A stretch of DNA of 64,000 nucleotides from an uncultured Geobacter sp. (GTDB lineage Bacteria > Desulfobacterota > Desulfuromonadia > Geobacterales > Pseudopelobacteraceae). The notes under the pieces are model-generated. The model was not told the DNA's origin and did no database searches. It was given only the letters and a program-made list of their open reading frames with translations. The first letter of the stretch is position 1; every line of letters starts with the position of its first letter. Positions 1,646 through 19,702 of the stretch are shown here, piece after piece. The stretch spans positions 7,249 through 71,248 of the forward strand of contig CAYWJJ010000014.1 of assembly GCA_964458105.1 (NCBI GenBank). The letters are read 5' to 3'. Made by a program: the position numbers and the translations under genes.

Positions 1646-1660
1646 AAGGAGGTAAATTGT

Positions 1661-3013: not shown

Positions 3014-3030
3014 TTGATTATTTGCTGAAC

Positions 3031-3064
3031 GATACCCCCGGCAGCACCGCTTCCGGGGGGTATC
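3031..3064 (+). terminator. GC-rich hairpin between the DUF1329 gene and the next gene (possible attenuator or weak terminator)
   Basis: gatacccccgg (3031-3041) pairs with ccggggggtatc (3053-3064). Only a weak T-tract (tttgt) follows. Confidence 0.3.
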
Positions 3065-3113
3065 ACCCAGTTTGTATCATCCGGGGCATGCGCCTCATTA
3101 TCCAGGAGAAGAT

Positions 3114-4217: not shown

Positions 4218-4268
4218 ATCTGGTTTTTCACTTGGCTCAAGTGACCTTTTTCAAGCTGCAAAAGCATT

Positions 4269-4376
4269 CCCTCCCCCTTGGCGGGGGAGGGTTAGGGTGG
4301 GGGGGAAGTTGATATGGAATGCACAAAGTTGTTGCTTCACCCACCCCCCTAACCCCCTCCCGTCAAGGGAGGGGGG
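4269..4376. repeat. Inverted pair of GC-rich REP-like elements (hairpin CCCTCCCCC-loop-GGGGGAGGG plus TTAGGGTGGGGG)
   Basis: Unit A is 4269-4305 (ccctcccccttggcgggggagggttagggtggggggg). Unit B is 4339-4376 (cacccacccccctaaccccctcccgtcaagggagggggg), which is the near reverse complement. The same element type recurs at 15568-15674. Confidence 0.8.
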
Positions 4377-4447
4377 ACATGATTCTGATGCAACTTGAGT
4401 TTTGTAGATAACCAGAACAATAAATTACAGTTACGGAGAGCGTTCCC

Positions 4448-6925: not shown

Positions 6926-6964
6926 GAGCAAGACAGTATTAATACAAATGAATGGAGGTAATAG

Positions 6965-8527
6965 ATGCTTAAAACGTTATGTCTATCAATAGCTTTACTT
7001 TTTCTGACAACCGGGATCGCGCCGGAGGCAATGGCCTTCTCCAGGGAGTCGCTGGTCTGGAAGAAATGCACCGGCTGCCATGAGCCGGCCAATGGCAAAA
7101 TCCCGCGCGTTGAAGAGGTGCGAACAACGCCGGAAGAATGGACTGTAATTGTTGATCGCATGTCCCGGCTTTACGGGATGGATCTGACGAAGAAGGAAAT
7201 GGACGTTCTTCTGAAGGAACTCTGCTCAACCCAGATTCTTACCCCCGCCGAACTGGACAAGGTTTCCTATCTCAACCTGATGAACAACCCGCAAACGCTT
7301 GAAAGTCCCGCCGGGGCCATCCAGGAGAAGCTGTTTACAACCTGTGTCCGCTGCCACAGCGCCGGAAAAATCAACTCTTACAGAATGAACGAACCCTCCT
7401 GGGCAAAAGTTCGTGACCTTCACCTGTATTTGTATCCGACGACCGTTTACCAGATGCGCGAGATGAAATGGGTTAATGGAGCCGATGCCGTGCTTGCCGA
7501 TCTGGCCAAAAGTCATTCCTACGGCCAGTCATGGAAGACACCGGCGGAAAAGCCGGCCGGCGCCTGGCTGATTCTCGGGTATGAGCCGGGCAAGGGCGAC
7601 TACCGTGGCCAGGCAACCATTACCTCCGGCAGCAATGACGAGTATACCGTCCAGGGAAGCATTACCTTTTCCGACGGGACCTCTGAAAATTTCCGCGGCG
7701 AGGCGACCCTGTACGGCGGGCACGCCCTGCGGACCCGGACTTCCCATAACGGGCTGAAGACCCTGGGCGCCTTCACCTTCGCGGAAGGCAGCATAAAAGG
7801 GGAACACCACTACCCGGCTCCCGATTTCAGAACATCGTCTAGCAGTTGGTATCCGGCCAATGGGAATCCGCAGTTGCTCAAGGTGTCGCCTGGTTTCATG
7901 CTGAAGGGCGAAGTGACAAAACTGGTCCTGGAAGGGATCAGGCTTCCCGATGCAGCGACCGGTGACATCCGCTTCTCAAGCGGTTCGGTGGAGGTGCAGT
8001 CGGTGCGTCGAATCAGCCCGGAGGCCCTGGAAGTGCTTGCGGTATCCCGGGAAGACGGGCTGCTGAAGGCGGAAGTCGGCATCAAGGGACTCAACGGGGT
8101 TCCAGTGGTTCTTGCAAAACAGATCGATTCAATTTCCATCACTCCGGAAATGGGCCGTGCCCGATTGGCCGGAGGAAAAGCGTTCCCGTCCGAAGGTGTC
8201 CAGTTTGACACAATTGCTTTTGCGCATGGCGGCAAGAGTTTGAAGCCTGAGGACGCCCTGCGGCTCGGACCGGTTCCGGCCACGTACAAGCTCACAGCTG
8301 AAGTCAAACGTCCTAATGATGATGATCTGCAATGGATGGGGATGATCCACGCCGGCGGCAAATATATTCCCTTTAGCGATTACGGCGCGGTTCCGACACG
8401 TGCCCAGCAGGTGGAATCAAGCGGATTGGCCAGGGTGGAGGCGACCTACAAGCGGGGCGAGCGCCAGTACAGCGCCAAAGCCAGAATGGTGGTAACCCTG
8501 CCTGACTTTATCCCGAGGATTAAATAG
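6965..8527 (+). CDS. qhpA: Quinohemoprotein amine dehydrogenase alpha subunit (di-haem c)
   Basis: Signal peptide present. Two CXXCH motifs (CTGCH, CVRCH). The N-terminal KKCTGCHE...RV.E.RTTPEEW...V.RM pattern and the ~520-aa length are typical of QhpA. It is followed by qhpD, qhpC and qhpB. Confidence 0.85.
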   Translation: MLKTLCLSIALLFLTTGIAPEAMAFSRESLVWKKCTGCHEPANGKIPRVEEVRTTPEEWTVIVDRMSRLYGMDLTKKEMDVLLKELCSTQILTPAELDKVSYLNLMNNPQTLESPAGAIQEKLFTTCVRCHSAGKINSYRMNEPSWAKVRDLHLYLYPTTVYQMREMKWVNGADAVLADLAKSHSYGQSWKTPAEKPAGAWLILGYEPGKGDYRGQATITSGSNDEYTVQGSITFSDGTSENFRGEATLYGGHALRTRTSHNGLKTLGAFTFAEGSIKGEHHYPAPDFRTSSSSWYPANGNPQLLKVSPGFMLKGEVTKLVLEGIRLPDAATGDIRFSSGSVEVQSVRRISPEALEVLAVSREDGLLKAEVGIKGLNGVPVVLAKQIDSISITPEMGRARLAGGKAFPSEGVQFDTIAFAHGGKSLKPEDALRLGPVPATYKLTAEVKRPNDDDLQWMGMIHAGGKYIPFSDYGAVPTRAQQVESSGLARVEATYKRGERQYSAKARMVVTLPDFIPRIK

Positions 8528-8529
8528 GC

Positions 8530-9921
8530 ATGCTCTGCGAATGGACCGATCATAAGCTGTTTGGTGTCAAGGACGGTGCAATTCTGTTCGGCGTCGACCA
8601 GGGCAGTCTGTTTCTGATCGACGAGCTGACCCGGGATGTGCTCTCCCGCTGGAATACCGGACCCACTCTGGATCTGGACGATGTCCCGAAGGATGACCGC
8701 GAGATTCTGGAAGGTTTGCGGGGTGCCCGTTTCCTGGCCCCTTCCGGTGCACGGCATCGATTCGAAGTGATTGATTTCGATATCGCATCGATTCCTCTGA
8801 CCACCATGGTGCTGGAGGTGGCTCAGGACTGCAACCTGGCCTGCACCTACTGTTATGCGGAAGGAGGTTCATACGGCAGGCCGGTCCGTCTGCTTGAACC
8901 CGAAACCGCACGGCAGGCGGTCAGAAAACTGGTTGACGATTCGGGAGACAAGGAAACCGTTACCCTGGTGATTTTTGGTGGAGAGCCGCTGCTCAATATG
9001 CCGGCGGTCACAGCCGCCGTGGAAGAAGCTCAGAGACTGTCCCGCGAGAGTGGAAAACGCGTTTTCGTCTCGCTGACGAGCAACGGCACCCTGCTGAATT
9101 CGGACATCATCGATTTTATCCACGCAAACCGGATTGCGGTAGCGGTCAGCCTGGACGGGCCTGCAGATCTGCACGATGCCAACCGGCCGGACGTGAACGG
9201 TTATGGAAGCTACACAACCATAGCCGGCAACCTGGAAGGGCTTCTGAAGGGCGCCACGGCGGCGGTCGCGGCGCGCGTGACCCTGACGCCCGATCAATGG
9301 CCGCGAATCGAAGAGGTGTTTTTCCATCTTCTTGAACTCGGTTTTCATGAGGTGGGAATCGCCCCGGTAAGCCCGGTGCGACGGGAGCTGCTGCCGGATG
9401 CCGAGCAGGAGGAAGCGCTTTTGCAGGGATTCTCGTCCCTGGCGCGATGTTTTCTCAAAGCCGCACAATCAAACCGTTTGCTGCCGTTTACCAACCTGAT
9501 CGACCTTCTGGCCCGGCTGCATCTGGGGCAGACCAAATCCGTTTCCTGCGGTGCGGGCTACGGATACCTGGCAGTTGATACGGAGGGAGGCTTTTACGTT
9601 TGCCATCGTCTGGTCGGAGATGAATCCTTCCGGGTCGGCAGTCTTGACGGCGGGGCCGATCCCGCAGAAATACGCCGGGCTTTGGACTCGGTCACCTGCG
9701 GCAAGCAGGAGATGTGCCGTGGTTGCTGGGCTAGAACCCTCTGTTCCGGCGGTTGCCACTACGAGAACCATCTCAGGGAAAATCTGCTGGGGCTTGCTCC
9801 GGGAGGCAGTTGTGACTTCATCCGCCGCTGGTTTCAACTGGGTATCGAGCTCTATGCGGAACTGAGGCGTTCCGGTGCGGATGAGTTTCTGCAGCGGCTG
9901 GGGAAACGGGTTAAATGCTGA
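8530..9921 (+). CDS. qhpD: Radical SAM/SPASM maturase for the QHNDH gamma subunit (thioether crosslinking)
   Basis: CNLACTYC (CxxxCxxC) radical-SAM motif. C-terminal Cys clusters (CGAGYGY...VCHR; CGKQEMCRGCWARTLCSGGCHYEN) indicate a SPASM domain. It starts 3 nt after the qhpA stop. Confidence 0.85.
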   Translation: MLCEWTDHKLFGVKDGAILFGVDQGSLFLIDELTRDVLSRWNTGPTLDLDDVPKDDREILEGLRGARFLAPSGARHRFEVIDFDIASIPLTTMVLEVAQDCNLACTYCYAEGGSYGRPVRLLEPETARQAVRKLVDDSGDKETVTLVIFGGEPLLNMPAVTAAVEEAQRLSRESGKRVFVSLTSNGTLLNSDIIDFIHANRIAVAVSLDGPADLHDANRPDVNGYGSYTTIAGNLEGLLKGATAAVAARVTLTPDQWPRIEEVFFHLLELGFHEVGIAPVSPVRRELLPDAEQEEALLQGFSSLARCFLKAAQSNRLLPFTNLIDLLARLHLGQTKSVSCGAGYGYLAVDTEGGFYVCHRLVGDESFRVGSLDGGADPAEIRRALDSVTCGKQEMCRGCWARTLCSGGCHYENHLRENLLGLAPGGSCDFIRRWFQLGIELYAELRRSGADEFLQRLGKRVKC

Positions 9922-9972
9922 TCTCATCATATTTAAACAGGCTGATTAATGCCAATGGAGGATCAAATCATT

Positions 9973-10302
9973 ATGGAAAAGAAAAAACGGATAGACGCTC
10001 TGAACGAAAAAGCCCGAGCCATTGAAGCGCTCGCAGATGGTGAGATGAAGTCGGTGGAGGCCCTGGAAGAAGGGGGCATGCTCAAGATGCCGGTGGGATG
10101 CACATCAATCTACGATACCGGATGGGAGACAAACCCCCGTGCAACCAACCCGGTCGGGAATTGCCAGCCCTCATCTCACGATTATCTCGGATGCGCAGGT
10201 GATTGCTGGTGGCCGGCACAAAACCCGGATGGAATGACCAACTATCTGGATCTCGAACTCACTTGCAGCAGTATTATCCGCGACTGGCGCGATATAAAGT
10301 AG
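9973..10302 (+). CDS. qhpC: QHNDH gamma subunit precursor (CTQ-bearing, triple thioether-crosslinked peptide)
   Basis: The ATG at 9973 lies 10 nt after GGAGGA; the ORF track starts at 9949. The core GC-TSIYDTGW-E ... C-QPSSH-D ... GC-AGD-CWWPAQNPD carries the hallmark CWWPAQ motif and all Cys/acidic partner spacings. Confidence 0.85.
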   Translation: MEKKKRIDALNEKARAIEALADGEMKSVEALEEGGMLKMPVGCTSIYDTGWETNPRATNPVGNCQPSSHDYLGCAGDCWWPAQNPDGMTNYLDLELTCSSIIRDWRDIK

Positions 10303-10393
10303 GTCAGCCGGAGAAGCTTCCCGTAGAAATATAAAGTGCATTCCCGTGCCGCTGCGCCGTCGGGAAATCATCTCTTTGAACAAGGAGTTATCA

Positions 10394-11401
10394 ATGACAA
10401 ATAGAATTTTATTTCTGGTGGGGTTCATGGCTCTTTGCCTTCTGTCCGGCACCGGACAGAGCGAGGCAAAAGAACTGATCTTCAATCTGGGGTATGGAAA
10501 AATCCAGGTTATTGACGTTGGCACCGATGAATTGCTCCCGGATATTGAGATCAAGGGGTGGGGGCGTGAAGCCTCGTTTTCCGCTGACAAGAAATTCATG
10601 TACGTAACGGCCAGCCGCCACCTGATTCACAAGATTGATATACAGCAGAATCGTGTGGTCAATACCATTGACATGCACTATGGCGGCTGGCAGCGATTCG
10701 TTTTCGGAATGGACCTGGCAGAAGACGGCAAGACGGCCTACGTCCACTTCTTCTCACGCAAGACCGACAGGGGCGAAGCCGTTGTAGGTCAACCGACGGT
10801 TGCACAGATCGATCTTGAGAGCGGGAAAATCCTGCGCAGCATGGAGGTCCCCTTCGGCGTATGTTACCTGACGTACGCGAAAAACAGTCAGACAATCTAT
10901 GCGGTCGGGCTGGACGTTTACCTGATAGACGTCTCCGGCAAAGAGATGAAAACAGCAGGCCTTTATCCGATGTTTGACAAAAAGATGAATATCCTGCCGC
11001 TCTTTAGCTATACAGCCGAAAATAACGGGGTGGCGCTACTGCCATACTGGATCGGTGAAGCTCCGGGGCTCTTAAGTATAAATACCAATACGGGCAAGAT
11101 TACCGAAACCCCGATAAAAAATCCGATGATGGTCTACGGTGCCCTATACTCGCCCGATATGAAAAAGGCCTACGCCAATATGGACGAACTGTACGTGATC
11201 GACCTGGCGACCCAAACCGTTACCAATACTGAAATCATTCCATCCGGCACAACATTCAGTGTCATGACAAGCGCCGACGGCAAAAAGATATATCTGCAGG
11301 GGGGACCGACCATCACGATTTACGATGCGGAATCGTTGAAGGTCGTAAAAACCCTTGAAATGTCGACGGACGGGATGCTGCTGCGCAGGTTGACCCTGTA
11401 A
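10394..11401 (+). CDS. qhpB: QHNDH beta subunit (7-bladed beta-propeller)
   Basis: ATG at 10394 follows AAGGAG. Signal peptide MTNRILFLVGFMALCLLSGTGQSEA. The ~335-aa beta-rich protein occupies the canonical position after qhpC. Confidence 0.75.
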   Translation: MTNRILFLVGFMALCLLSGTGQSEAKELIFNLGYGKIQVIDVGTDELLPDIEIKGWGREASFSADKKFMYVTASRHLIHKIDIQQNRVVNTIDMHYGGWQRFVFGMDLAEDGKTAYVHFFSRKTDRGEAVVGQPTVAQIDLESGKILRSMEVPFGVCYLTYAKNSQTIYAVGLDVYLIDVSGKEMKTAGLYPMFDKKMNILPLFSYTAENNGVALLPYWIGEAPGLLSINTNTGKITETPIKNPMMVYGALYSPDMKKAYANMDELYVIDLATQTVTNTEIIPSGTTFSVMTSADGKKIYLQGGPTITIYDAESLKVVKTLEMSTDGMLLRRLTL

Positions 11402-11412
11402 AGGGAGCGCTC

Positions 11413-12240
11413 GTGGATTACGGAATCCTCGTGAATGATGCCGGCCCGTTACCGGATGACCCGCGGGAGGTTTGCACGGCACCCTGGCGGACCGTTCTGC
11501 CACCCGGTCCACTGCGGGCGATCTATTTCGGGTCGGAGTTTTGTGCCGACCAGCTGCCCGATACAGCCAAAGTTGCGCTGCTCTGCGCACATGCCCGTGA
11601 CGCCGGGGTCGAAGCTGTGCTGCTGACCCCCATCGCCACTCCCCGGGGGCTCGCAAAAATCGAACAGTTGCTGTCCGGTATTTCCGCCGCCGGAGAGCTG
11701 CCGGCGGTTGTTTTTAACGACTGGGGGGTCGCGAATCTGCTGCGGGAATCTTTCCCTCACCTCCAGCGGCGGGCGGGACGACTGATGAATCGCGGTCTCC
11801 GCGACCCGCGGCTGATGGAAAAGATGACGGACTCCCAAAGCGTTCCGGGGGAGCGGGGAGAGCGGATGCGCTCGCTGCTTGCGCGTTTGGGAGTTGCGGC
11901 GCTTGAAACCGACTGCGACCTGCAAGGCGGTTTTCTCGGGGATGGAACGGAGGCGTTGCAGCGGGTACTGCATCTTCCGTACGCGTTCGCGGCAAGCGGC
12001 AGGAATTGCCTGATAAAGGCCGAAGGGGCGCAGACCATCGACCAATGCTTTACCAAAGGGCTGGACCTTCCCTGCAGTGGCGCATGCCGTGGCCAGTGGC
12101 ATCGGGTCGACCGGCCGGATACTTCTCTGCCGCTCTGGCGGGCCGGCAATACCATCTTTTTTGAAGTCCCCCGATTTCAGGCTTTAGTGCAGATTGGACA
12201 GGCGGATCGCATCGTCCTCCATCAAGGGCCGACACTGTGA
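11413..12240 (+). CDS. Peptidase-U32-family-like protein, UbiV-like (putative Fe-S subunit of an O2-independent hydroxylase)
   Basis: GTG start 5 nt after AAGGGAG. AIYFGSEFCADQLP resembles the UbiV VYLGE.VCS.R motif. There is a C-terminal Cys cluster NC..(x12)..C..(x8)..CSGAC. Its stop overlaps the next start (GTGA). Confidence 0.6.
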   Translation: MDYGILVNDAGPLPDDPREVCTAPWRTVLPPGPLRAIYFGSEFCADQLPDTAKVALLCAHARDAGVEAVLLTPIATPRGLAKIEQLLSGISAAGELPAVVFNDWGVANLLRESFPHLQRRAGRLMNRGLRDPRLMEKMTDSQSVPGERGERMRSLLARLGVAALETDCDLQGGFLGDGTEALQRVLHLPYAFAASGRNCLIKAEGAQTIDQCFTKGLDLPCSGACRGQWHRVDRPDTSLPLWRAGNTIFFEVPRFQALVQIGQADRIVLHQGPTL

Positions 12241-13196
12241 AAATACTGGCGCCGCTACGACATTCGGATGAGGTAGCTCCGTTGCTGGAAGCCGGAGCGG
12301 ATGAGTTCTTCTGCGGGCTGACGCCACCTGGCTGGGAGTCTCGCTTTGGAGCTGCCTGGGCAAACCGGCGTGCGCCCCAATCCGCAGGTGTGGTTGATTT
12401 GGCAGATTTTGAGCGGATCGTGGCCCTGTCTGAAGGACGTTCCGTCCATGTGGCGCTCAATGCGCCCTGTTACCCGCCCAGCGCAGTGGAGATGCTGGCG
12501 GCATTCGGTACTCTCCTGCTGGACAAGGGGGCATCGGGGCTGATCGTGGCTGACATGGATCTCCTGCTGGCGCTGGTCGAGGCCGGCCATGGGGCATCTC
12601 TCCATCTGTCGAGCCTGGCAACTTGCATCAACGCGGGGTCCGCGAAATTTTACCACGACCTGGGCATACGGAGGATCATTCTCCCCCGACATCTGACCCT
12701 GAGCGAAATAGAGAAAATATTGATCCCCGGGCTGGAGTTCGAAGCTTTTCTGCTGAACGATGGCTGCGTCTTCGAGGAAGGGCTCTGCGCCACGACCCAC
12801 GCCGCCGGCACATTCTGCAGCATGGATGGCCAGGGATCGCAGGGGGTTTCACCGGAGGCGGTGGAACGCTACGCCTTCTGGAAGTGGACACTCAACCATT
12901 GCGGATGCCGGACAGGCAACGGCTATCCGATGGGTCCCTGCGGGCTATGCGCGATACCTCGCCTGCTGGCGGCCGGCATCGTCAGTTTCAAGGTGGTGGG
13001 ACGGGAAGCGTCCCTGGCGCGTAAGGAAGCTTCGGTGCGGATAGCGGCCCGGTCGTTGCGCCTGGCGCAGGCGGGTGCCGGTCCGGAGGAGATCCGCCAG
13101 GCAGTCGTGGATCTGCGCGGTTGGCCCCAGATGTGCGAGGAACGGCATCTGTGCTACTACCCGGATCTGTGGCAGCGAAAGGAATCGGCATGTTGA
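12237..13196 (+). CDS. Peptidase-U32-family protein, UbiU-like (putative O2-independent hydroxylase subunit)
   Basis: The following resemble the U32 core as in UbiU, TrhP and RlhA: MKILAP....EVAPLLEAGADEFFCGL, VHVALN, GASGLIVADMDLL, LHLSSLA...N...FY..LG..RIILPRHLTLSEI, CVFEEGLC (Cx6C) followed by further Cys, and KVVGRE. Confidence 0.7.
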   Translation: MKILAPLRHSDEVAPLLEAGADEFFCGLTPPGWESRFGAAWANRRAPQSAGVVDLADFERIVALSEGRSVHVALNAPCYPPSAVEMLAAFGTLLLDKGASGLIVADMDLLLALVEAGHGASLHLSSLATCINAGSAKFYHDLGIRRIILPRHLTLSEIEKILIPGLEFEAFLLNDGCVFEEGLCATTHAAGTFCSMDGQGSQGVSPEAVERYAFWKWTLNHCGCRTGNGYPMGPCGLCAIPRLLAAGIVSFKVVGREASLARKEASVRIAARSLRLAQAGAGPEEIRQAVVDLRGWPQMCEERHLCYYPDLWQRKESAC

Positions 13197-14923
13197 CCGG
13201 ATTGGGGCTTTTCAGCCGGCATCTGCGAGGGAAAAGCGCCCTGATAGCAGCCCTGTTCCTGCTGGGACTGGCCGGCGCCGCTACTTCGCTGGCTTCTCCG
13301 CTGATCGGCAAGACCTTCATCGATTCGGTCGTCGGCAAGCACAACTTTGCCCTGGTGCCGCGCATTGCCCTGGCGCTTCTCGGGTTGGCGGTTGCCGATC
13401 TGATGCTTGGGGCATGTACGCGTCTGGTACACACAAAACTGTCGGCCGGGGTTCTGGTGGAGATCAGGGAACGGCTGTTCACCCAATGCCTGCATGCACC
13501 GCTGGCGGAGATGGAGCGCTTCCGCCAGGGCGATCTGCTGAGCCGCTTCGGCTCCGACATCCCGAAAATCCAGACGCTGCTGGTGGACGGTATCCTCGGA
13601 TTCTTCCAGAATTTCCTGTTCCTGATCGTCGCGGCCGCTATCCTTCTGCATCTGTCGGTGTCCCTGGCGCTCTGGAGTTTCCTCGGAATCCTGGTTGCGC
13701 TGGCGATTACGACGGCGTTCCGCGGACCGGTGGAACAGGGAACCCGCAAGGTTCGCGATGCGATGGTCGACCTGTCCCATTTCCTTACCGAGCGTCTTGG
13801 CGCCCTGCGCGCCGTGCGTCTCCATCAGGCGCAGAGCCGGGATCAGCAATCATTTTCCGCCTGCAATAACATCCTCGTTCGCCGGTTACTGAAATTCCAG
13901 ACCCTCGATTCAGCCGCTTCAGGATTCCCGGCCCTGGCGCTTAGTGCCGGTCTGGCCTGGATTTACCTGCTTGGTGGAAGGCTGATCGAGAGCGGCGCCA
14001 TAACCCTGGGAACGTTCGTGGCCTTTATGTTGTACCAGGGCAGACTGGTCAGCCCGGCCATGGGGATTCTGGGACTGGTGCGCAAACTCCAGGAAGCACA
14101 AGTCAGCCTGGAAAGGGTGGCCGAGCTGCTGGCAAACGAGGCGGCCGCCACAGTTGCGACAGTTGCGGGTGCGGCAGAGCCGGGCGAAATTGTTCTTGAG
14201 AATCTCGGTTTCGCCTATGACGGGTCCCCGGAGGTCCTGGATGGCGCCAGTTTGAAGGTTTCAGCGGGAGAACGCATAGCGGTTTTCGGGGCGTCCGGGG
14301 CCGGCAAGTCGACCCTGGTGCAGATGCTGTTCGGCCTGCGTTCACCGCACAGGGGACGGCTCTCGATTGGCCCCGCAATAAACGATTCTCAAGCGAGACT
14401 GGGCTATGCCGGCTGCGATCCTTTTCTGCTGCACGCGACGGTTGCCGAGAACCTGCGATACGGCAACCGGGAGGCCGGCGCTGAGCAGTTGCAGTACGCA
14501 GCCGGCATTGCGGAAGCCCATGGCTTTATTTGCGGGCTGCCGGACCGGTATGGCACTGTCATCGGCGGCCGGGGACTGGCGCTGTCCGACGGGCAACGGC
14601 AACGGATCGGGCTGGCCCGGCTGGTTCTGCGCAATCCGCAGATTCTGGTGCTGGACGAAGCCTTTTCGGCGCTTGATCCCGACACCGAGGCCAAGGTCCG
14701 ACGGAATCTGTTCAACCATTTTCCCGACCGGACATTTGTGGTCATCACCCACCGATTGCAGGCACTGGATGAGTTCGATCGCCTCTATCTGATGAAGGCG
14801 GGAGGTCTCCGCCAGGTTGATTGTCAGGAACTTCGGGCCGAGCTTGACGGTACGGCAGTGAGGCAGGCCGCCTCGAATCTGGTCATGCTCGATCATGCCC
14901 GTTCTCTCAGGCGTTCGGCATGA
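13190..14923 (+). CDS. qhpF: ABC exporter (fused TMD-NBD) of the qhp operon
   Basis: The internal ATG at 13190 overlaps the upstream stop (ATGTTGA); the ORF track starts at 13121. Six-TM N-terminal half. Walker [10 protein letters not shown], signature LSDGQRQR, Walker B ILVLDEA. Confidence 0.8.
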   Translation: MLTGLGLFSRHLRGKSALIAALFLLGLAGAATSLASPLIGKTFIDSVVGKHNFALVPRIALALLGLAVADLMLGACTRLVHTKLSAGVLVEIRERLFTQCLHAPLAEMERFRQGDLLSRFGSDIPKIQTLLVDGILGFFQNFLFLIVAAAILLHLSVSLALWSFLGILVALAITTAFRGPVEQGTRKVRDAMVDLSHFLTERLGALRAVRLHQAQSRDQQSFSACNNILVRRLLKFQTLDSAASGFPALALSAGLAWIYLLGGRLIESGAITLGTFVAFMLYQGRLVSPAMGILGLVRKLQEAQVSLERVAELLANEAAATVATVAGAAEPGEIVLENLGFAYDGSPEVLDGASLKVSAGERIAVFGASGAGKSTLVQMLFGLRSPHRGRLSIGPAINDSQARLGYAGCDPFLLHATVAENLRYGNREAGAEQLQYAAGIAEAHGFICGLPDRYGTVIGGRGLALSDGQRQRIGLARLVLRNPQILVLDEAFSALDPDTEAKVRRNLFNHFPDRTFVVITHRLQALDEFDRLYLMKAGGLRQVDCQELRAELDGTAVRQAASNLVMLDHARSLRRSA

Positions 14924-15555
14924 CAGATCAGGCCAAAGATCAGGCAAGGCTTCGTATCGGGATGATCGACACCGGCGTCAACCCCTGGCACTCGCATGTC
15001 GGGGGCGGCGTGACCGGCTGCCGCATCTATCTGGACGGCGACGGCAGGATTCGGGAAGACGACGATTTTCGCGATCTGGTCGGGCATGGCACCGCGGTGG
15101 CCGGAATTCTGCGCCAGCAGCTCCCCGAAGTGGAAATCTTTGTTGTCAGGGTGTTCGAACGGGACCTCAGCTCCTATCCATCCCTGGTGGCGCGGGCCAT
15201 GTTGCGGGCCGCGGCCGAGGGATGCTCGACCCTGAATCTGAGCCTGGGAATGCCCCCCGGTCCCGGCTCCGAACTCCTCAGCATGGCCTGCCGCGAAATC
15301 ATCGATGCCGGTTGCACCGTCGTCGCCGCGGGTCATCCCGGTAATGCCCGGCTGCTGCCGGCATCGATTCCCGGAGTGTTGGGGGTGCTGGCGGACGACC
15401 ATGTCCCGGTGGGGGAAATCCGTATCAATCATGGGCGCGGCTACCCCTATTCCGCTTCCGGGAGCCCGCGCGATCTGGCAGGTTTGAGAAGTTCGGATAA
15501 TCTGTGGGGGAACTCCTTTGCCTGCGCCAGGGTGGCCGCATATATTTTTTCCTGA
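14920..15555 (+). CDS. qhpE: Small subtilisin-like serine protease (QhpC leader peptidase)
   Basis: Asp/His/Ser triad motifs are IGMIDTGV, GHGTAVAG and GNSFACARVA. The ~211-aa size is typical of QhpE. There is an ATGA overlap with qhpF. Confidence 0.8.
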   Translation: MTDQAKDQARLRIGMIDTGVNPWHSHVGGGVTGCRIYLDGDGRIREDDDFRDLVGHGTAVAGILRQQLPEVEIFVVRVFERDLSSYPSLVARAMLRAAAEGCSTLNLSLGMPPGPGSELLSMACREIIDAGCTVVAAGHPGNARLLPASIPGVLGVLADDHVPVGEIRINHGRGYPYSASGSPRDLAGLRSSDNLWGNSFACARVAAYIFS

Positions 15556-15567
15556 TTCGTTCTAAGT

Positions 15568-15674
15568 CCCTTCTCCCAAAGGGAGAAGGTGGCCGAAGGC
15601 CGGATGAGGGGGCAACAGTGCCATATAAATCCAACTCTGCCCCTCACCCTAGCCCTCTCCCTCAGGGAGAGGGA
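15568..15674. repeat. Second inverted pair of GC-rich REP-like elements
   Basis: Unit A is 15568-15612 (cccttctcccaaagggagaagg + tggccgaaggccggatgaggggg). Unit B is 15640-15674 (cccctcaccctagccctctccctcagggagaggga). The architecture matches 4269-4376. Confidence 0.75.
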
Positions 15675-15740: not shown

Positions 15741-17477
15741 ATGGACAAGATCGCACGGATTGACATGGGGGCAGCAGGCGGCCCGAAGGTTACAGTGGGC
15801 GACCTGGGTGCATATGCCGGGTTGGGCGGCAGGGCGATGACCTCGCTGGTGGTCGCCGCAGAGGTCCATCCACTGGCCCATGCGCTGGGCGCCGAGAACA
15901 AGCTGGTGATTGCCCCCGGCATGCTGAGCGGCACCACCGGTTCCATGACCGGGCGGCTGTCGGTTGGCTGCAAGAGCCCGCTGACCGGCACCATCAAGGA
16001 ATCCAATGCCGGCGGCCAGGCCGCTCAGGTGCTGGCCAGGCTCGGCTACGCCGCTCTCATCCTGGAAGGGAAGCCGCAAGGCGACGATCTGTACAAGATT
16101 TACATCAACAAGGACGGCATCCAGGTCATTGTTGATAACAGCCTGAAGCTGCTGGACAACTACCCGGTCATCGATAAGCTGCGCCGGGAGTATGGCGACA
16201 AGGCGGCCTACATGTCCATCGGTTCGGCCGGAGAGCGCAAGCTGCTGGCGGCCTCCATCGCCTGCACCGATCCCGAATTGCGCCCGACCCGGCACTGCGG
16301 ACGGGGCGGGGTGGGCGCCGTGATGGGCGCCAAGCGGGTCAAGGCGATCATCCTGGACGATGCCGGCATGAAGATGCGCCCTCCCAGAGATGCGGACGCC
16401 TACCGCGACGCCAACCGCAAGTTCGTTGAAGGGCTGCGAAAACACCCGGTCACCGGAGAAGGATTGCCGGCATACGGCACCAATGTCCTGACCAACGTAT
16501 TGAACGAAGCCGGCGGCTATCCGACCTACAACTTCAAAACTGGTCAGTTTGAGAACTGCTCCAGCATCAGCGGCGAAGCCCAGGCCGCGCTGGAAATCAA
16601 ACGGGGCGGGTCGGCCACCCACGGCTGCCATCGCGGCTGCGTCATACAGTGCTCCGGCATTTACAACGACAAGGATGGAAATTACGTAACCAAACAGCCC
16701 GAATACGAGACGGTCTGGTCGCACGGCGGTAACTGCGGAATCCACGACCTGGATACCGTCGCCCGTCTTGATTACATGGACGACAATATCGGCGTTGACA
16801 CCATCGAAATGGGGGTCACGATCGGTATCGCCATGGATGCGGGGCTGGCCGATTTCGGAGATGGGGAAGCGGCGATCAGGCTGGTTGACGAGGTGGGCAA
16901 GGGGACTCCCCTCGGGCGGGTTCTTGGCTGCGGTGCGGAGATAACCGGCAAGGTCTTCGGCGTAGAAAGGGTGCCGGTCGTCAAGGGTCAGGCCCTCTCG
17001 GCCTACGATCCCCGCGCGGTCCAGGGGATGGGGGTCACCTACGCCACTGGCACCATGGGGGCCGACCATACCTCCGGCTACGCGGTCGCCACCAACATCC
17101 TGAAGATCGGCGGCGATGTGGACCCGCTCAAGACCGAAGGACAGGTCGAGCTGTCGCGCAACCTGCAGATCGCCACGGCAGCCATCGACTCCACCGGGAT
17201 GTGCCTGTTTGTCGCCATGGCCTTGATGGATCAGCCGGAAACCTTCCAGGCCTTGTTCGACATGCTAGGCTCCTTCCACGGCAGCGCCATGACCGGCGAC
17301 GAGTTCATGGCTCTGGGCAAAAAGGTGCTCTCCGCCGAGCGGGACTTCAACACCCGGGCCGGCTTCACCAGGCATCACGACCGTCTGCCGCGCTTTTTCA
17401 ACTCCGAGCCGCTGGAACCGCATAATATTGCATTCATGGTGAAGGATGAGGATCTGGACGAGGTCTTCAACTGGTAA
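15741..17477 (+). CDS. aor: Aldehyde:ferredoxin oxidoreductase (tungstopterin AOR family)
   Basis: 578-aa ORF. The N-terminal ..GLGGRA..S..V......PL...N.LV.APG.L.GT......GR..V..KSPLTG...ESN.GG pattern and the full-length architecture are typical of AOR. AAGGAG RBS. Confidence 0.9.
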   Translation: MDKIARIDMGAAGGPKVTVGDLGAYAGLGGRAMTSLVVAAEVHPLAHALGAENKLVIAPGMLSGTTGSMTGRLSVGCKSPLTGTIKESNAGGQAAQVLARLGYAALILEGKPQGDDLYKIYINKDGIQVIVDNSLKLLDNYPVIDKLRREYGDKAAYMSIGSAGERKLLAASIACTDPELRPTRHCGRGGVGAVMGAKRVKAIILDDAGMKMRPPRDADAYRDANRKFVEGLRKHPVTGEGLPAYGTNVLTNVLNEAGGYPTYNFKTGQFENCSSISGEAQAALEIKRGGSATHGCHRGCVIQCSGIYNDKDGNYVTKQPEYETVWSHGGNCGIHDLDTVARLDYMDDNIGVDTIEMGVTIGIAMDAGLADFGDGEAAIRLVDEVGKGTPLGRVLGCGAEITGKVFGVERVPVVKGQALSAYDPRAVQGMGVTYATGTMGADHTSGYAVATNILKIGGDVDPLKTEGQVELSRNLQIATAAIDSTGMCLFVAMALMDQPETFQALFDMLGSFHGSAMTGDEFMALGKKVLSAERDFNTRAGFTRHHDRLPRFFNSEPLEPHNIAFMVKDEDLDEVFNW

Positions 17478-17632: not shown

Positions 17633-17654
17633 ATAGTTGTGCTATCATTCCCCC

Positions 17655-18941
17655 ATGACCACCCTCACCCTCGAACAGCGCCTGGAAATACTGGCCGACA
17701 GCGCCAAGTACGACGTCTCCTGCTCGTCCAGTGGCAGCAATCGCGCCGGTAAAGCGGGCGCTCTCGGCAGCACTGCATCCGGCGGTATCTGCCACACCTG
17801 GACCGCCGACGGCCGCTGCATTTCGCTGCTGAAAATCCTGCTGACCAATGCCTGCATCTACGACTGCGCCTACTGCCTCAACCGCCGTTCCAACGACATC
17901 CCCCGCGCGGCCATGACCCCGGACGAGGTTGTGGAGCTGACGATCAATTTCTACCACCGCAATTATATCGAGGGACTGTTCCTCAGCACCGGAGTTGTAC
18001 GTTCGGCCGATTACACGATGGAGCAGCTGATCGCAGTGGCGCGCCGGCTGCGGGAGGAGGAGCGTTTCAACGGCTATATTCACCTCAAGCTGGTGCCGGG
18101 CGCCGATCCGCTGCTGATCGCCCAGGCCGGCCGCTATGCCGACCGGGTCAGCATCAATATCGAACTGCCCAGCCGCCAGAGCCTGGCGCTGCTGGCGCCG
18201 GACAAGCCGCGCGAAGCGGTGATCGGACCCATGCGCCAGGTCAGCAGCCTGATCGTGGAATCAAAGGAGGCCCGCCAGCAGTCGCGTAAGGCGCCACGCT
18301 TTGCCCCGGCCGGTCAGAGCACCCAGTTGATCGTTGGAGCCACCCCGGAGAGCGACCGCGAGATCATCCTGCTGACGGAAGGGCTTTACAAGCGGCTGGA
18401 ATTGAAGCGGGTCTACTACTCGGCTTTTATCCCGGTGTCCAGCGATAATCGCCTGCCGGCGCTTCCCACTCCGCCGCTTTTGCGGGAACATCGCCTGTAT
18501 CAGGCTGACTGGTTGCTGCGCTTCTACGGTTTTGCCGCCCATGAATTGCTGGACGAGGGGCGCCCCAATCTGGATATGCGCTTTGACCCGAAGAGCGACT
18601 GGGCCCTGCGGCATCTGGAGCTGTTCCCGGTGGAGGTCAATCGGGCCGATTACGAGGTCCTGCTGCGGGTGCCGGGAGTTGGCGTACGTTCCGCCCAGCG
18701 CATCGTGCAGGCCCGGCGCGGCACACGCCTGGGTGAGGCCGAGTTGAAAAAGCTGGGGGTGGTGCTGAAACGTGCCAGATATTTCCTGACGGCGGGCGGA
18801 CGCTATCTGGGCGGCATCAGGCTGGACGGGCCGCGTCTGATCGAGCGGTTGCTGGCGCCGGTGAGGCGCCCGGCGCGACTGGACCAGTTGGAGCTGTTTG
18901 CATCTGTGCCGGATGTTTCGGCAGTGACGGGGGAGTTGTGA
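17655..18941 (+). CDS. Putative DNA modification/repair radical SAM protein (TIGR03916-like)
   Basis: MTTLTLEQRLEILADSAKYDVSC start. CIYDCAYC radical-SAM motif. The C-terminal LLRVPGVGVRSAQRIV is helix-hairpin-helix-like. It is paired with a DUF4130-like ORF. Confidence 0.8.
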   Translation: MTTLTLEQRLEILADSAKYDVSCSSSGSNRAGKAGALGSTASGGICHTWTADGRCISLLKILLTNACIYDCAYCLNRRSNDIPRAAMTPDEVVELTINFYHRNYIEGLFLSTGVVRSADYTMEQLIAVARRLREEERFNGYIHLKLVPGADPLLIAQAGRYADRVSINIELPSRQSLALLAPDKPREAVIGPMRQVSSLIVESKEARQQSRKAPRFAPAGQSTQLIVGATPESDREIILLTEGLYKRLELKRVYYSAFIPVSSDNRLPALPTPPLLREHRLYQADWLLRFYGFAAHELLDEGRPNLDMRFDPKSDWALRHLELFPVEVNRADYEVLLRVPGVGVRSAQRIVQARRGTRLGEAELKKLGVVLKRARYFLTAGGRYLGGIRLDGPRLIERLLAPVRRPARLDQLELFASVPDVSAVTGEL

Positions 18942-19702
18942 CGGTCTATCGCTTCGACGGCAGCTTTGAGGGGTTTATCTGTGCAGTTGTTGCCTGCCTG
19001 GAACAGGGGGAGGGACACCCGGAATTCGTGCGGGATCGTGATGATCATGTTGCGGGGCTCTTTGCCGGAGAAATCCGTGACGTGGCATCTGTACGGCAAA
19101 CGGCGTTGGAGTTCAGGAACAGGTTTGTTAAAACCGTGTCACAGCCGGCTTTTGCCACGGCGCGCTACGCTTTCCACAGTCAGAAGGAAGGTGTCGAGCA
19201 GTTGGTGTGGCGTTACCTGATACTGGGGCTGCAGGTGGGGCCGCGGCTGGCCGGGATGCTGGCGCTGGAACCGGTGCATTCGATCAACCGGATAGCGCGG
19301 CAGGTTTCGCATGAGGCGCACAAATTCAAGGGTTTCGTTCGGTTCAGCGAAGTTGCCGACGGGTTTCTGTATGCCCGGATTGAGCCGCAGGCCGATGTTC
19401 TGCCGCTGATCGCTCCCCATTTTGTCGGGCGGGTCGGCGATCGCCCCTGGATGATCCATGACCTCCGCCGCAGTCAGGCCGCGATTTTTGATCTGAAGTC
19501 ATGGCGGCTGGTTGGGGGTATCGTGCTGACCGCCGAGCCGGGCATGAGCGAGGCCGAACATGAGTATGCCGCCCTGTGGCAGCGCTATTTTCAGCGCCAC
19601 GCCATTACAGAGCGGCATAATCCCAATCTGCAGCAAAAACATGTTCCGCTGCGTTATCGCAAGCATCTGATGGAGTTCAATACCAAGTTCGATCCACTTT
19701 GA
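18938..19702 (+). CDS. DUF4130 / TIGR03915-like putative DNA-repair partner protein
   Basis: GTGA overlap with the radical SAM gene. The ~254-aa protein has ..KF.GF.RF.......Y..I.P...VLPL...HF..R ... W.I.D motifs typical of the conserved partner. Confidence 0.7.
   Translation: MTVYRFDGSFEGFICAVVACLEQGEGHPEFVRDRDDHVAGLFAGEIRDVASVRQTALEFRNRFVKTVSQPAFATARYAFHSQKEGVEQLVWRYLILGLQVGPRLAGMLALEPVHSINRIARQVSHEAHKFKGFVRFSEVADGFLYARIEPQADVLPLIAPHFVGRVGDRPWMIHDLRRSQAAIFDLKSWRLVGGIVLTAEPGMSEAEHEYAALWQRYFQRHAITERHNPNLQQKHVPLRYRKHLMEFNTKFDPL

What the first reader, a model, noticed from the sequence alone, without database searches (positions are those of the whole stretch)
11413..13196. Two U32 (UbiV-like/UbiU-like) ORFs occupy the QhpG slot of the qhp operon: candidate O2-independent CTQ-forming peptidyl-tryptophan hydroxylase
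Established knowledge: in the characterised qhp operon (Paracoccus denitrificans qhpADCBEFGR), the cysteine tryptophylquinone cofactor requires QhpG. QhpG is an FAD- and O2-dependent monooxygenase that dihydroxylates the Trp of QhpC.

Seen here: qhpA, D, C, B, F and E are all present, but no flavoprotein monooxygenase-like ORF lies between 6965 and 15555 or elsewhere in the window.

Two tightly coupled ORFs sit exactly between qhpB and qhpF:
- GTG 11413 lies 5 nt after AAGGGAG.
- There is a GTGA overlap at 12237-12240.
- There is an ATGTTGA overlap with qhpF at 13190-13196.

The second ORF shows the U32 core (GADEFFCGL, GASGLIVADMDLL, RRIILPRHLTLSEI, Cx6C = CVFEEGLC plus further Cys, KVVGRE), like UbiU. 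The first ORF has AIYFGSEFCADQLP plus a C-terminal Cys cluster ending CSGAC, like UbiV.

U32 members UbiU/UbiV, TrhP and RlhA are known Fe-S enzymes that hydroxylate aromatic rings without O2.

Inference: this heterodimer replaces QhpG so that an anaerobe can build CTQ. If so, it would extend U32 hydroxylases to a protein (RiPP-like) substrate. I am not aware of this having been described.
Basis: partly seen in the sequence, partly recalled or inferred. Interest (0 to 1): 0.85.

Follow-up and report, generated by a model that had tools for sequence, protein, structure and literature searches.

The report
Candidate oxygen-independent CTQ cofactor hydroxylase
Two iron-sulfur-type "U32" genes sit inside a bacterial amine-dehydrogenase operon, in the place of the oxygen-requiring enzyme that normally builds its tryptophan-quinone cofactor; this holds in every comparable locus examined, including strict anaerobes, so they probably make the cofactor without oxygen.

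Summary
The window carries qhpA-D-C-B, two translationally coupled ORFs (11413-12240 and 12237-13196), then qhpF-E.

- **ORF6** is a clear U32 protein: PF01136 E=6e-26, and hhalign to E. coli UbiU gives 98.6%.
- **ORF5** has no Pfam or NCBIfam hit, but three lines place it as a divergent U32/UbiV-like protein:
  - profile-profile match to the U32b family (92.9%, E=4e-7);
  - best Foldseek hit to the U32 structure 5d88;
  - its four family-invariant Cys align with Cys39/180/193/197 of UbiV.
- **Fusion:** a natural fusion of the two proteins exists.
- **Linkage:** in 157 related loci (2.07 Mb), all 110 that cover the qhpB-qhpF interval carry both genes. This includes a deeply divergent Desulfobacterales clade and one locus with rearranged gene order.
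- **QhpG:** no QhpG homologue occurs in the window or in any of these loci. In contrast, 25 of 26 canonical plasmid-borne operons have QhpG next to qhpA, and none has the pair.
- **QhpC:** all CTQ and crosslink residues are conserved.
- **Hosts** include the obligate anaerobes Geobacter argillaceus and Desulfobacula phenolica.
- **Literature and libraries:** no paper or curated family describes this.

The hydroxylase function is inferred, not shown.

The parts
6965..8527 (+). qhpA, the dihaem alpha subunit of quinohemoprotein amine dehydrogenase
   Evidence: PF09098, PF14930 and PF09100 hits. TIGR03908 scores 264.5 bits, just under its cut-off of 274. About 28% identical to canonical QhpA.
8530..9921 (+). 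qhpD, the radical SAM/SPASM thioether-forming maturase
   Evidence: TIGR03906 E=8e-96; PF04055.
9949..10302 (+). qhpC, the gamma subunit and CTQ precursor. The CTQ Cys is C82 and the CTQ Trp is W88. Crosslink pairs are C51/E60, C72/D78 and C86/D94.
   Evidence: NF037958 scores 112 bits against a cut-off of 50. All CTQ and crosslink residues are invariant against canonical QhpC.
10346..11401 (+). qhpB, the beta-propeller subunit. Public gene calls start at about 10394.
   Evidence: TIGR03907 E=5e-25; gene calls.
11413..12240 (+). U32a (ORF5): a divergent U32/UbiV-like protein with four family-invariant Cys (C44, C199, C221, C225). Proposed small subunit of the hydroxylase.
   Evidence: No Pfam or NCBIfam hit. 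AF2 pLDDT 83.5 with a TIM-like alternation of strands and helices, and top Foldseek hit 5d88 (U32), E=1.9e-4. hhalign to a U32b profile gives 92.9%, E=3.8e-7. The four Cys align with UbiV C39/C180/C193/C197.
12237..13196 (+). U32b (ORF6): a UbiU-like U32 protein with E169, C177-x6-C184, C194 and C235, plus further invariant Cys. Proposed catalytic subunit.
   Evidence: PF01136 E=6.3e-26. hhalign to E. coli UbiU gives 98.6%, E=5e-16. Invariant residues. Below the UbiU and TrhP equivalog cut-offs.
13190..14923 (+). qhpF, the ABC exporter for the processed gamma subunit
   Evidence: PF00664 plus PF00005. Conserved position in all loci.
14920..15555 (+). qhpE, the subtilisin-like leader peptidase
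   Evidence: NF049966 QhpE E=2e-34; PF00082.
15653..15673 (+). terminator-like hairpin after qhpE (weak evidence)
   Evidence: 9-bp stem with 7 GC pairs and a T-rich tail. The overall count of such sites is not above chance.
15741..17477 (+). aldehyde:ferredoxin oxidoreductase (AOR), the likely next step (aldehyde to acid) in anaerobes
   Evidence: PF02730 plus PF01314. It recurs downstream of, or inside, many U32-type qhp loci.

Best explanation
U32a (ORF5) and U32b (ORF6) form a cytoplasmic two-subunit iron-sulfur enzyme of the UbiV/UbiU type. It is an integral maturation factor of a large clade of qhp operons.

Proposed pathway:
1. QhpD installs the three Cys-to-Asp/Glu thioethers in QhpC.
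2. The pair hydroxylates the CTQ-precursor tryptophan (W88 of the window QhpC) at C6 and C7 without O2. By analogy with UbiUV, TrhP and RlhA, the O atoms most likely come from prephenate. The two [4Fe-4S] clusters carry away the electrons.
3. QhpE removes the leader peptide and QhpF exports the subunit.
4. The quinone and the Cys-Trp link are completed in the periplasm.

The pair thus does the job of the FAD/O2-dependent QhpG, which this clade lacks.

Shown: the gene anatomy, family relationships, Cys motifs, strict linkage to qhp, absence of QhpG nearby, and conservation of the CTQ residues.

Inferred: heterodimer formation, cluster binding, the substrate, the chemistry and the O donor.
For: - **Linkage:** 77 of 77 GTDB species hits for U32a lie in qhpADCB-U32a-U32b-FE synteny. 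Of 157 genome and metagenome loci, 110 of 110 that contain both qhpB and qhpF have both genes. All 24 loci with core qhp genes but no U32 hit are cut by a contig end.
- **Divergent clade:** a second clade (QhpA about 34%, U32a 26-31%, U32b 38-41% identity) keeps the pair, including the gene order D-U32a-U32b-F-E-A-C-B in L158 and the isolate Desulfobacula phenolica.
- **Co-divergence:** U32b is as conserved as QhpC (mean 64% against 66% identity to the window). Its divergence tracks that of QhpD (Spearman 0.79).
- **QhpG:** there are no QhpG hits in the window or in 2.07 Mb of such loci. In canonical operons, 25 of 26 plasmid records have QhpG next to qhpA. No plasmid record matches U32a, and the five fetched qhp loci among these plasmid records (four canonical QhpG-type plus Novosphingobium L083) lack both U32 genes.
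- **QhpC:** all CTQ and crosslink residues are kept.
- **Family:** U32b hits PF01136 and matches UbiU at 98.6%. It has the equivalents of RlhA E161/C169/C176, which are essential in RlhA (PMC5727448). The four invariant Cys of U32a align with UbiV C39/C180/C193/C197. U32a is homologous to U32b by profile and matches the U32 structure 5d88 best.
- **Physical coupling:** the start and stop codons overlap, and a natural U32a-U32b fusion exists (P0325).
- **Precedent:** UbiU and UbiV each bind a [4Fe-4S] cluster, form a complex, and perform three O2-independent ring hydroxylations with prephenate as O donor (PMC10470549, PMC10990095).
- **Anaerobic context:** a tungsten-type AOR replaces the NAD-dependent aldehyde dehydrogenase of canonical operons.
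Against: - There is no biochemical or genetic evidence.
- U32a fails Pfam PF01136 and all NCBIfam models. Shallow profile comparisons to UbiV were not significant. The best direct comparison to UbiV gave E=0.0027 at 11% probability.
- U32b is far below the UbiU and TrhP equivalog cut-offs, so its function cannot be transferred by orthology.
- No in vitro hydroxylase activity has been reconstituted for any U32 protein (PMC10990095).
- QhpG absence was tested only within +/-10 kb (64 kb for the window), not in whole genomes.
- Many hosts are Beta- and Gammaproteobacteria that may be aerobic.
- QHNDH is reported to work anaerobically in Aromatoleum aromaticum (title of Schmitt et al. 2019, cited in PMC11231019). 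I could not inspect its operons, and its genome did not appear among the U32a hits.
Confidence: 0.65

Rival explanations
1. The pair is a genuine, clade-specific qhp maturation factor, but with a different task. Possibilities include another modification of QhpC (this clade's QhpC has an extra conserved C-terminal Cys), a scaffold or chaperone role for QhpD (QhpG also has such a role), or an electron relay. In this reading the Trp is oxygenated by something else.
For: The strict linkage proves involvement in qhp, not the chemistry. U32b carries six to eight invariant Cys beyond the UbiU four. U32-type QhpC has an extra Cys. QhpG is known to stimulate QhpD crosslinking by binding QhpCD (PMC7876137).
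Against: No other candidate oxygenase is conserved in these operons. The one function that canonical operons encode and this clade lacks is QhpG. The only well-supported U32 activities are aromatic ring hydroxylations (PMC10990095, PMC5727448).
Confidence: 0.2
2. The two ORFs are peptidases, following the historical U32 'collagenase' annotation. They would process or degrade QhpC or other Qhp proteins.
For: Source annotations read 'collagenase-like PrtC family protease' or 'U32 family peptidase'. PrtC and HP0169 were reported to be collagenolytic (PMC5727448).
Against: The dedicated leader peptidase QhpE is present in every locus. No catalytic mechanism for U32 proteolysis is known. The conserved features are Cys cluster ligands, as in the UbiU, UbiV and RlhA hydroxylation factors. 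A protease would not explain the loss of QhpG.
Confidence: 0.05
3. QhpG (or another O2-dependent hydroxylase) is encoded elsewhere in these genomes. The pair would then be an accessory that only improves maturation at low O2, for example by protecting or repairing clusters of QhpD.
For: Whole genomes could not be searched. Many hosts are probably facultative.
Against: In canonical systems QhpG is adjacent to qhpA in 25 of 26 cases. Obligate anaerobes such as Desulfobacula phenolica and Geobacter argillaceus carry full operons with the pair, and an O2-dependent step would be useless there.
Confidence: 0.07

Closest known systems
UbiU-UbiV (E. coli YhbU/YhbV), the O2-independent ubiquinone ring hydroxylase
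   Same: - Two adjacent genes encode a larger U32 protein and a smaller one of about 280-290 aa.
- U32b matches UbiU at 98.6% by hhalign, with C177/C184 on UbiU C169/C176.
- The four Cys of U32a align with UbiV C39/180/193/197.
- One complex makes several hydroxylations on one aromatic ring.
- Both are cytoplasmic and occur in anaerobes and facultative bacteria.
   Different: - The gene order is small-then-large here; it is ubiU then ubiV in E. coli.
- U32a is not recognised by PF01136 or any NCBIfam model. U32b scores 58 bits against the UbiU cut-off of 440.
- There is no UbiT-like SCP2 partner.
- The context is a RiPP-like protein maturation operon, so the substrate would be a peptidyl tryptophan and not a prenylphenol.
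- U32b has many extra invariant Cys.
TrhP (YegQ) and RlhA (YdcP), U32 factors for O2-independent RNA hydroxylation
   Same: - The U32 motif with the essential Glu and Cx6C is present (E169, C177, C184; PMC5727448).
- They hydroxylate an aromatic (hetero)ring in a macromolecule.
- They depend on prephenate and Fe-S clusters.
   Different: - They are single polypeptides with their own C-terminal domains (DUF3656 in RlhA).
- U32b scores 45 bits against the TrhP cut-off of 534.
- Their substrate is RNA, not protein.
QhpG, the FAD-dependent peptidyl-tryptophan 6,7-dihydroxylase of canonical qhp operons
   Same: - It has the same place in the pathway and the same operon membership.
- It acts in the cytoplasm on crosslinked QhpC before export (PMC7876137).
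- It is mutually exclusive with the pair in all loci examined.
   Different: It is an unrelated fold and cofactor (a flavoprotein monooxygenase), it requires O2, and it is a single subunit.
LodB/GoxB flavoproteins and MauG, other tryptophylquinone-forming enzymes
   Same: They are dedicated enzymes, encoded next to the precursor, that oxygenate a peptidyl Trp to make CTQ or TTQ (PMC11951088).
   Different: All use O2 or H2O2. They are flavin or dihaem enzymes and show no sequence or fold relation to U32.
U32 peptidase Mk0906 (PDB 5d88) and the PrtC-type 'collagenases'
   Same: 5d88 is the best Foldseek hit for U32a (E=1.9e-4) and the lowest-rmsd hit among the listed matches for U32b. U32b belongs to the same Pfam family.
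   Different: TM-scores are only 0.4-0.5. There is no operon relation. Proteolysis is unlikely here because QhpE is present.

Membership tests
Peptidase_U32 (PF01136): ORF6/U32b | Match to the Pfam model above the gathering score | tested here: met
   91.5 bits against a cut-off of 22.4, E=6.3e-26, residues 95-281.
Peptidase_U32 (PF01136): ORF6/U32b | Conserved Glu and Cx6C of the U32 motif (RlhA E161, C169, C176; UbiU C169, C176) | tested here: met
   E169, C177 and C184 are invariant in 20 homologues. C177 and C184 align with UbiU C169 and C176. Essentiality in RlhA is from PMC5727448.
Peptidase_U32 (PF01136): ORF6/U32b | Third and fourth cluster Cys (UbiU C193, C232) | tested here: inconclusive
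   C194 and C235 are invariant. They lie within an indel, or one column away, from UbiU C193 and C232 in the MAFFT alignment. That UbiU C193 and C232 are the third and fourth cluster ligands is from my recollection of Pelosi et al. 2019, a paper not held in the library. One search confirms only that E. coli UbiU has Cys at 169, 176, 193 and 232.
UbiU equivalog (NF047963) and TrhP equivalog (NF011996): ORF6 | Score above NCBI's curated cut-off | tested here: not met
   58.1 bits against 440 for UbiU, and 44.9 bits against 534 for TrhP. ORF6 belongs to a separate U32 subfamily.
Peptidase_U32 (PF01136): ORF5/U32a | Match to the Pfam model | tested here: not met
   No Pfam or NCBIfam family at E<=0.1. 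Second-tier homologues are also negative, apart from one at E=0.14.
U32 superfamily (remote): ORF5/U32a | Profile-profile homology to U32 proteins | tested here: met
   An expanded U32a profile (139 sequences) against a diverse U32b profile gives 92.9% probability and E=3.8e-7 over 76 columns. Shallow profiles failed.
U32 superfamily (remote): ORF5/U32a | U32-like TIM-barrel fold | tested here: met
   The AF2 model has pLDDT 83.5 and pTM 0.86. The only Foldseek PDB hit with E<1e-3 is 5d88 (U32 peptidase Mk0906), at probability 1.0 and TM 0.45-0.50. The TM-score is modest.
UbiV-like subunit: ORF5/U32a | Four Cys at the positions of UbiV C39, C180, C193 and C197, the [4Fe-4S] ligands | tested here: met
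   C44, C199, C221 and C225 are 98-100% conserved in 139 family members and align column for column with the UbiV cysteines. Their identity as ligands in UbiV is from Pelosi et al. 2019 (my recollection). The general statement is in PMC10470549.
UbiU-UbiV-type complex | The two proteins form a heteromer, and each binds a [4Fe-4S] cluster | not testable with these tools
   The evidence is indirect only: overlapping start and stop codons, co-occurrence in 110 of 110 loci, and a natural fusion, P0325.
QhpG (flavoprotein monooxygenase) | Homology to QhpG or an FAD-binding fold | tested here: not met
   Neither ORF resembles QhpG. tblastn with four QhpG proteins gives no hit in the window or in the 157 loci.
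qhp (QHNDH) operon | Presence of qhpA, B, C, D, E and F, with the CTQ Trp and Cys and three Cys-Asp/Glu crosslink pairs in QhpC | tested here: met
   Searches give the best hits to QH_alpha, quino_hemo_SAM, QH_gamma, QH_beta and QhpE. A, D, B and E score below the equivalog cut-offs, so this is a divergent clade. The QhpC residues are invariant.

The most novel reading that the evidence does not exclude
U32a/U32b is the first U32 hydroxylase with a protein (RiPP-like) substrate. It would also be the first O2-independent route to a tryptophylquinone cofactor. The proposal is a two-subunit Fe-S enzyme that uses an organic O donor (prephenate) to dihydroxylate a peptidyl tryptophan, which lets obligate anaerobes (Geobacter, Desulfobacula) run a quinoprotein amine dehydrogenase.

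Related U32a-like/U32b-like pairs, and a fused form outside qhp operons, hint at a wider family of such two-component hydroxylases with other substrates.
Probability: 0.6. Interest if true: 0.85.

Novelty: new variant of a known kind. Interest (0 to 1): 0.8.

Why it matters
All known routes to protein-derived quinone cofactors (TPQ, LTQ, TTQ, CTQ) use O2 or H2O2. The 2025 review of protein-derived cofactors (PMC11951088) lists only QhpG for CTQ in QHNDH. Yet complete qhp operons exist in strict anaerobes.

If the pair is the missing hydroxylase, three things follow:
- It explains how anaerobes make a quinoprotein.
- It extends U32 and prephenate-dependent hydroxylation from lipids and RNA to proteins.
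- It gives the U32 field a tractable single-turnover substrate, a small crosslinked peptide with a +32 Da read-out. No U32 activity has yet been reconstituted in vitro (PMC10990095).

It also defines an unannotated protein family: U32a has no Pfam or NCBIfam model, although hundreds of homologues exist. Finally, it refines the annotation of amine catabolism in Geobacter, Desulfobacterales and many denitrifier MAGs.

Tried and rejected
1. Direct sequence routes for ORF5 gave nothing: Pfam and NCBIfam, a PDB profile search, and hhalign of the 20-sequence family against the ORF6 family or UbiV. Only deeper, more diverse profiles connected it.
2. phmmer of ORF6 against PDB sequences found nothing. 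Foldseek of the ORF6 model returned generic TIM barrels, with 5d88 only eighth, so fold search alone does not discriminate.
3. NCBIfam and Pfam on second-tier ORF5 homologues showed no UbiV or other family.
4. The Schmitt et al. 2019 paper on anaerobic QHNDH in Aromatoleum and the Pelosi et al. 2019 UbiUV paper are not held in the library. The Aromatoleum operon type therefore remains unknown.
5. The QhpG-like gene of Azoarcus sp. KH32C is not in a qhp context and is uninformative.
6. The metagenome scan kept only the 80 QhpC relatives closest to the window. It therefore sampled U32-type operons, not an unbiased mixture. The canonical comparison set had to come from plasmids.
7. Contexts of second-tier U32a-like proteins were mostly on contigs too short to interpret.
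8. The promoter and terminator scan was not above chance overall.
9. I considered and rejected the idea that the pair is a chance neighbour or a mobile insertion. It co-diverges with QhpD and is present in 110 of 110 loci.
Full report
**Observation**

The window encodes, on the + strand:
- qhpA (6965-8527)
- qhpD (8530-9921)
- qhpC (9949-10302)
- qhpB (10346-11401)
- ORF5 (11413-12240, 275 aa)
- ORF6 (12237-13196, 319 aa)
- qhpF (13190-14923)
- qhpE (14920-15555)

This is shown. The quoted peptide motifs are present.

Both N-termini are conserved among homologues, so the overlapping starts are real. Public gene calls begin ORF6 15 codons too late.

The Qhp assignments rest on Pfam and NCBIfam. 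QhpC passes its equivalog cut-off. A, D, B and E fall below theirs, and QhpA is only about 28% identical to plasmid-borne canonical QhpA. This is therefore a deeply divergent qhp clade.

**What the two ORFs are**

ORF6 (here U32b) is a U32 protein:
- It hits PF01136 at E=6e-26.
- Its family profile matches E. coli UbiU with 98.6% probability.
- E169, C177 and C184 are invariant. They correspond to RlhA E161/C169/C176 and UbiU C169/C176 (PMC5727448).
- It scores far below the UbiU and TrhP equivalog cut-offs, so it belongs to its own subfamily.
- It has six to eight additional invariant cysteines.

ORF5 (here U32a) has no hit in Pfam, NCBIfam or PDB sequences. Shallow profile comparisons also failed. 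Three independent remote lines nevertheless tie it to U32/UbiV:
- The AlphaFold model (pLDDT 83.5) has the U32 structure 5d88 as its only Foldseek hit below E=1e-3.
- A 139-sequence profile matches a diverse U32b profile at 92.9% probability, E=3.8e-7.
- The four cysteines that are 98-100% conserved in the extended family (C44, C199, C221, C225) align exactly with UbiV C39, C180, C193 and C197.

UbiU and UbiV each bind a [4Fe-4S] cluster through four conserved Cys and form a complex (PMC10470549).

A 705-aa natural fusion of a U32a-like and a U32b-like domain exists (P0325). Together with the overlapping codons, this argues that the two proteins work together.

**Linkage to qhp**

- A scan of one genome per GTDB species with the U32a family returned 77 loci. 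All show qhpA-D-C-B-U32a-U32b-F-E wherever the contig allows. Hosts are Geobacter, Desulfuromonadales, Anaeromyxobacter, Deferrisomatales, many Beta- and Gammaproteobacterial MAGs, Gemmatimonadota and Armatimonadota.
- A metagenome scan with a QhpC alignment gave 80 further loci.
- Of the 157 loci (2.07 Mb), 110 contain both qhpB and qhpF, and all 110 have both U32 genes. The 24 loci with core qhp genes but no U32 hit are all truncated at the relevant side.
- A second, much more divergent clade (QhpA about 34%, U32a 26-31%, U32b 38-41% identity) also keeps the pair. This includes a locus with the order D-U32a-U32b-F-E-A-C-B (L158).
- Homologues of that clade come from Desulfobacterales, including the isolate Desulfobacula phenolica. 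Its operon is qhpA-D-porin-C-B-cytochrome-U32a-U32b-F-E-AOR.
- U32b is as conserved as QhpC, and its divergence tracks that of QhpD (Spearman 0.79).

The pair is therefore an ancient, vertically co-inherited part of these operons.

**QhpG**

- I took four QhpG proteins from canonical operons on plasmids of Pseudomonas nitroreducens, Paracoccus pantotrophus, Cupriavidus basilensis and Leisingera.
- They detect one another at E of about 1e-27 or better. They give no hit in the window (best E=6.2) or in any U32-type locus.
- Pfam scans of the window ORFs submitted show no flavoprotein monooxygenase.
- Conversely, 25 of the 26 plasmid records with QhpA have QhpG next to it. No plasmid has a U32a homologue, and the five fetched qhp loci among these plasmid records (four canonical QhpG-type plus Novosphingobium L083) lack both U32 genes.
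- The one exception, Novosphingobium sp. RL4, has an unassignable 343-aa ORF between qhpB and qhpF.

Within the data reachable here, the pair and QhpG are mutually exclusive.

**Is a Trp hydroxylase still needed?**

Yes. QhpC from both U32-type clades keeps the CTQ Cys and Trp (C82 and W88 in the window) and all three crosslink pairs (C51/E60, C72/D78, C86/D94). The residue roles are from PMC7876137 and PMC11951088.

**Mechanism proposed**

Neither U32 protein shows an obvious N-terminal signal peptide (my reading of the sequences; not tested with a predictor). This suggests both are cytoplasmic, like QhpG, which acts on crosslinked QhpC in a QhpCDG complex before export (PMC7876137).

The best-supported U32 functions are O2-independent hydroxylations of aromatic rings. 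UbiUV performs three of them on one ring, with prephenate as the O donor, and depends on Fe-S clusters (PMC10990095, PMC10470549, PMC5727448).

The simplest reading is that U32a/U32b dihydroxylates the QhpC tryptophan without O2.

The context fits anaerobic amine catabolism. A tungsten-type aldehyde:ferredoxin oxidoreductase follows qhpE here and in many relatives. Canonical operons instead carry NAD-dependent aldehyde dehydrogenases.

These steps are inferred: heteromer formation, cluster binding, substrate, regiochemistry and O donor.

**Limits**

- There is no experiment behind any step.
- QhpG absence was tested only in neighbourhoods, not whole genomes.
- The metagenome sample was biased towards the window's clade.
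- Many carriers may be aerobic or facultative, so the system may serve the whole O2 range, as UbiUV can (PMC10470549).
- The operon type of Aromatoleum aromaticum, which makes QHNDH anaerobically, could not be checked.

**Novelty**

Full-text searches found no paper that combines any of these term sets:
- QHNDH or tryptophylquinone with U32 or UbiU
- CTQ with prephenate
- further qhp gene names

The QhpG paper and a 2025 review name only QhpG. NCBIfam release 20 has no model for either protein.

I rate this a new variant of a known kind: a U32 O2-independent hydroxylase with a new substrate class, and an alternative CTQ pathway. My confidence is about 0.65 in the specific function and well above 0.9 that the pair is a dedicated qhp maturation component.

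Noticed in passing
window 15741-17477: An aldehyde:ferredoxin oxidoreductase (AFOR_N plus AFOR_C) follows qhpE here. It recurs after, or inside, many U32-type qhp loci, and sits between qhpF and qhpE in Deferrisomatales. Canonical QhpG-type operons carry NAD-dependent aldehyde dehydrogenases instead.
   Followed up: partly
L168 10001-12118: A natural 705-aa fusion (P0325) of a U32a-like N-terminal half and a U32b-like C-terminal half lies on a 6.45 Mb high-GC contig with no qhp genes. Its neighbours are a secreted beta-propeller (6783-8039) and unknown secreted proteins, possibly another protein-modification system.
   Followed up: partly
L169 2781-4709; L170 998-3388: U32a-like/U32b-like pairs also occur outside recognisable qhp context. 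One is in GCA_002196785.1 next to transposases. Another U32a-like gene directly follows an aldehyde dehydrogenase. The contigs are too short to interpret.
   Followed up: partly
L083 16538-17569 (Novosphingobium sp. RL4 plasmid): This canonical-type qhp operon has no QhpG tblastn hit within 12 kb. Instead, an unassignable ORF of about 343 aa (no Pfam hit) lies between qhpB and qhpF, which may be a third kind of occupant of this slot.
   Followed up: partly
window 12237-13196 (U32b residues C26, C130, C224, C235/C238, C300, C306, C319): U32b has six to eight invariant cysteines beyond the four UbiU-type ligands, including a C-terminal CxxxxxC...C group. This suggests an extra metal or cluster site. 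The loop at residues 176-232 is modelled with pLDDT below 50.
   Followed up: no
window 9949-10302 (QhpC C-terminus, 'TCSS'): QhpC of U32-type operons carries an extra conserved Cys near the C-terminus (TCSS, QCPN or QCQA) and a 2-3 residue insertion after the first crosslink. Canonical QhpC has neither.
   Followed up: no
window 12237-12281: Public gene calls for this protein (P0121, L165-L167) start 15 codons downstream (304 aa). However, the MK[IL]LAPL N-terminus from the GTG at 12237 is conserved and aligns with the UbiU N-terminus.
   Followed up: yes
L172 3741-16292 (Desulfobacula phenolica): The Desulfobacterales version of the operon adds a Phenol_MetA_deg-type outer-membrane channel between qhpD and qhpC. 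It also adds a NapC/NirT-like cytochrome before U32a, and AOR plus a ThiS-like gene after qhpE.
   Followed up: no
window 11-6925: Upstream of qhpA lies a DUF1302 / DUF1329 / BNR-repeat / MMPL (RND-like) four-gene cluster on the same strand. It may be an uptake or export system related to the amine substrate, or it may be unrelated.
   Followed up: no
window 17637-19702: A radical SAM protein (434 aa) and a DUF4130 protein are translationally coupled downstream of AOR. This pairing looks like a putative DNA-modification or repair pair and is not part of qhp.
   Followed up: no
L028, L031, L037, L040, L060, L071, L104, L118, L130, L148: Several MAG or metagenome loci show split or partial tblastn hits for qhp and U32 genes, which suggests frameshifts. 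These are probably long-read assembly errors rather than pseudogenes. L071 is the most degraded.
   Followed up: no
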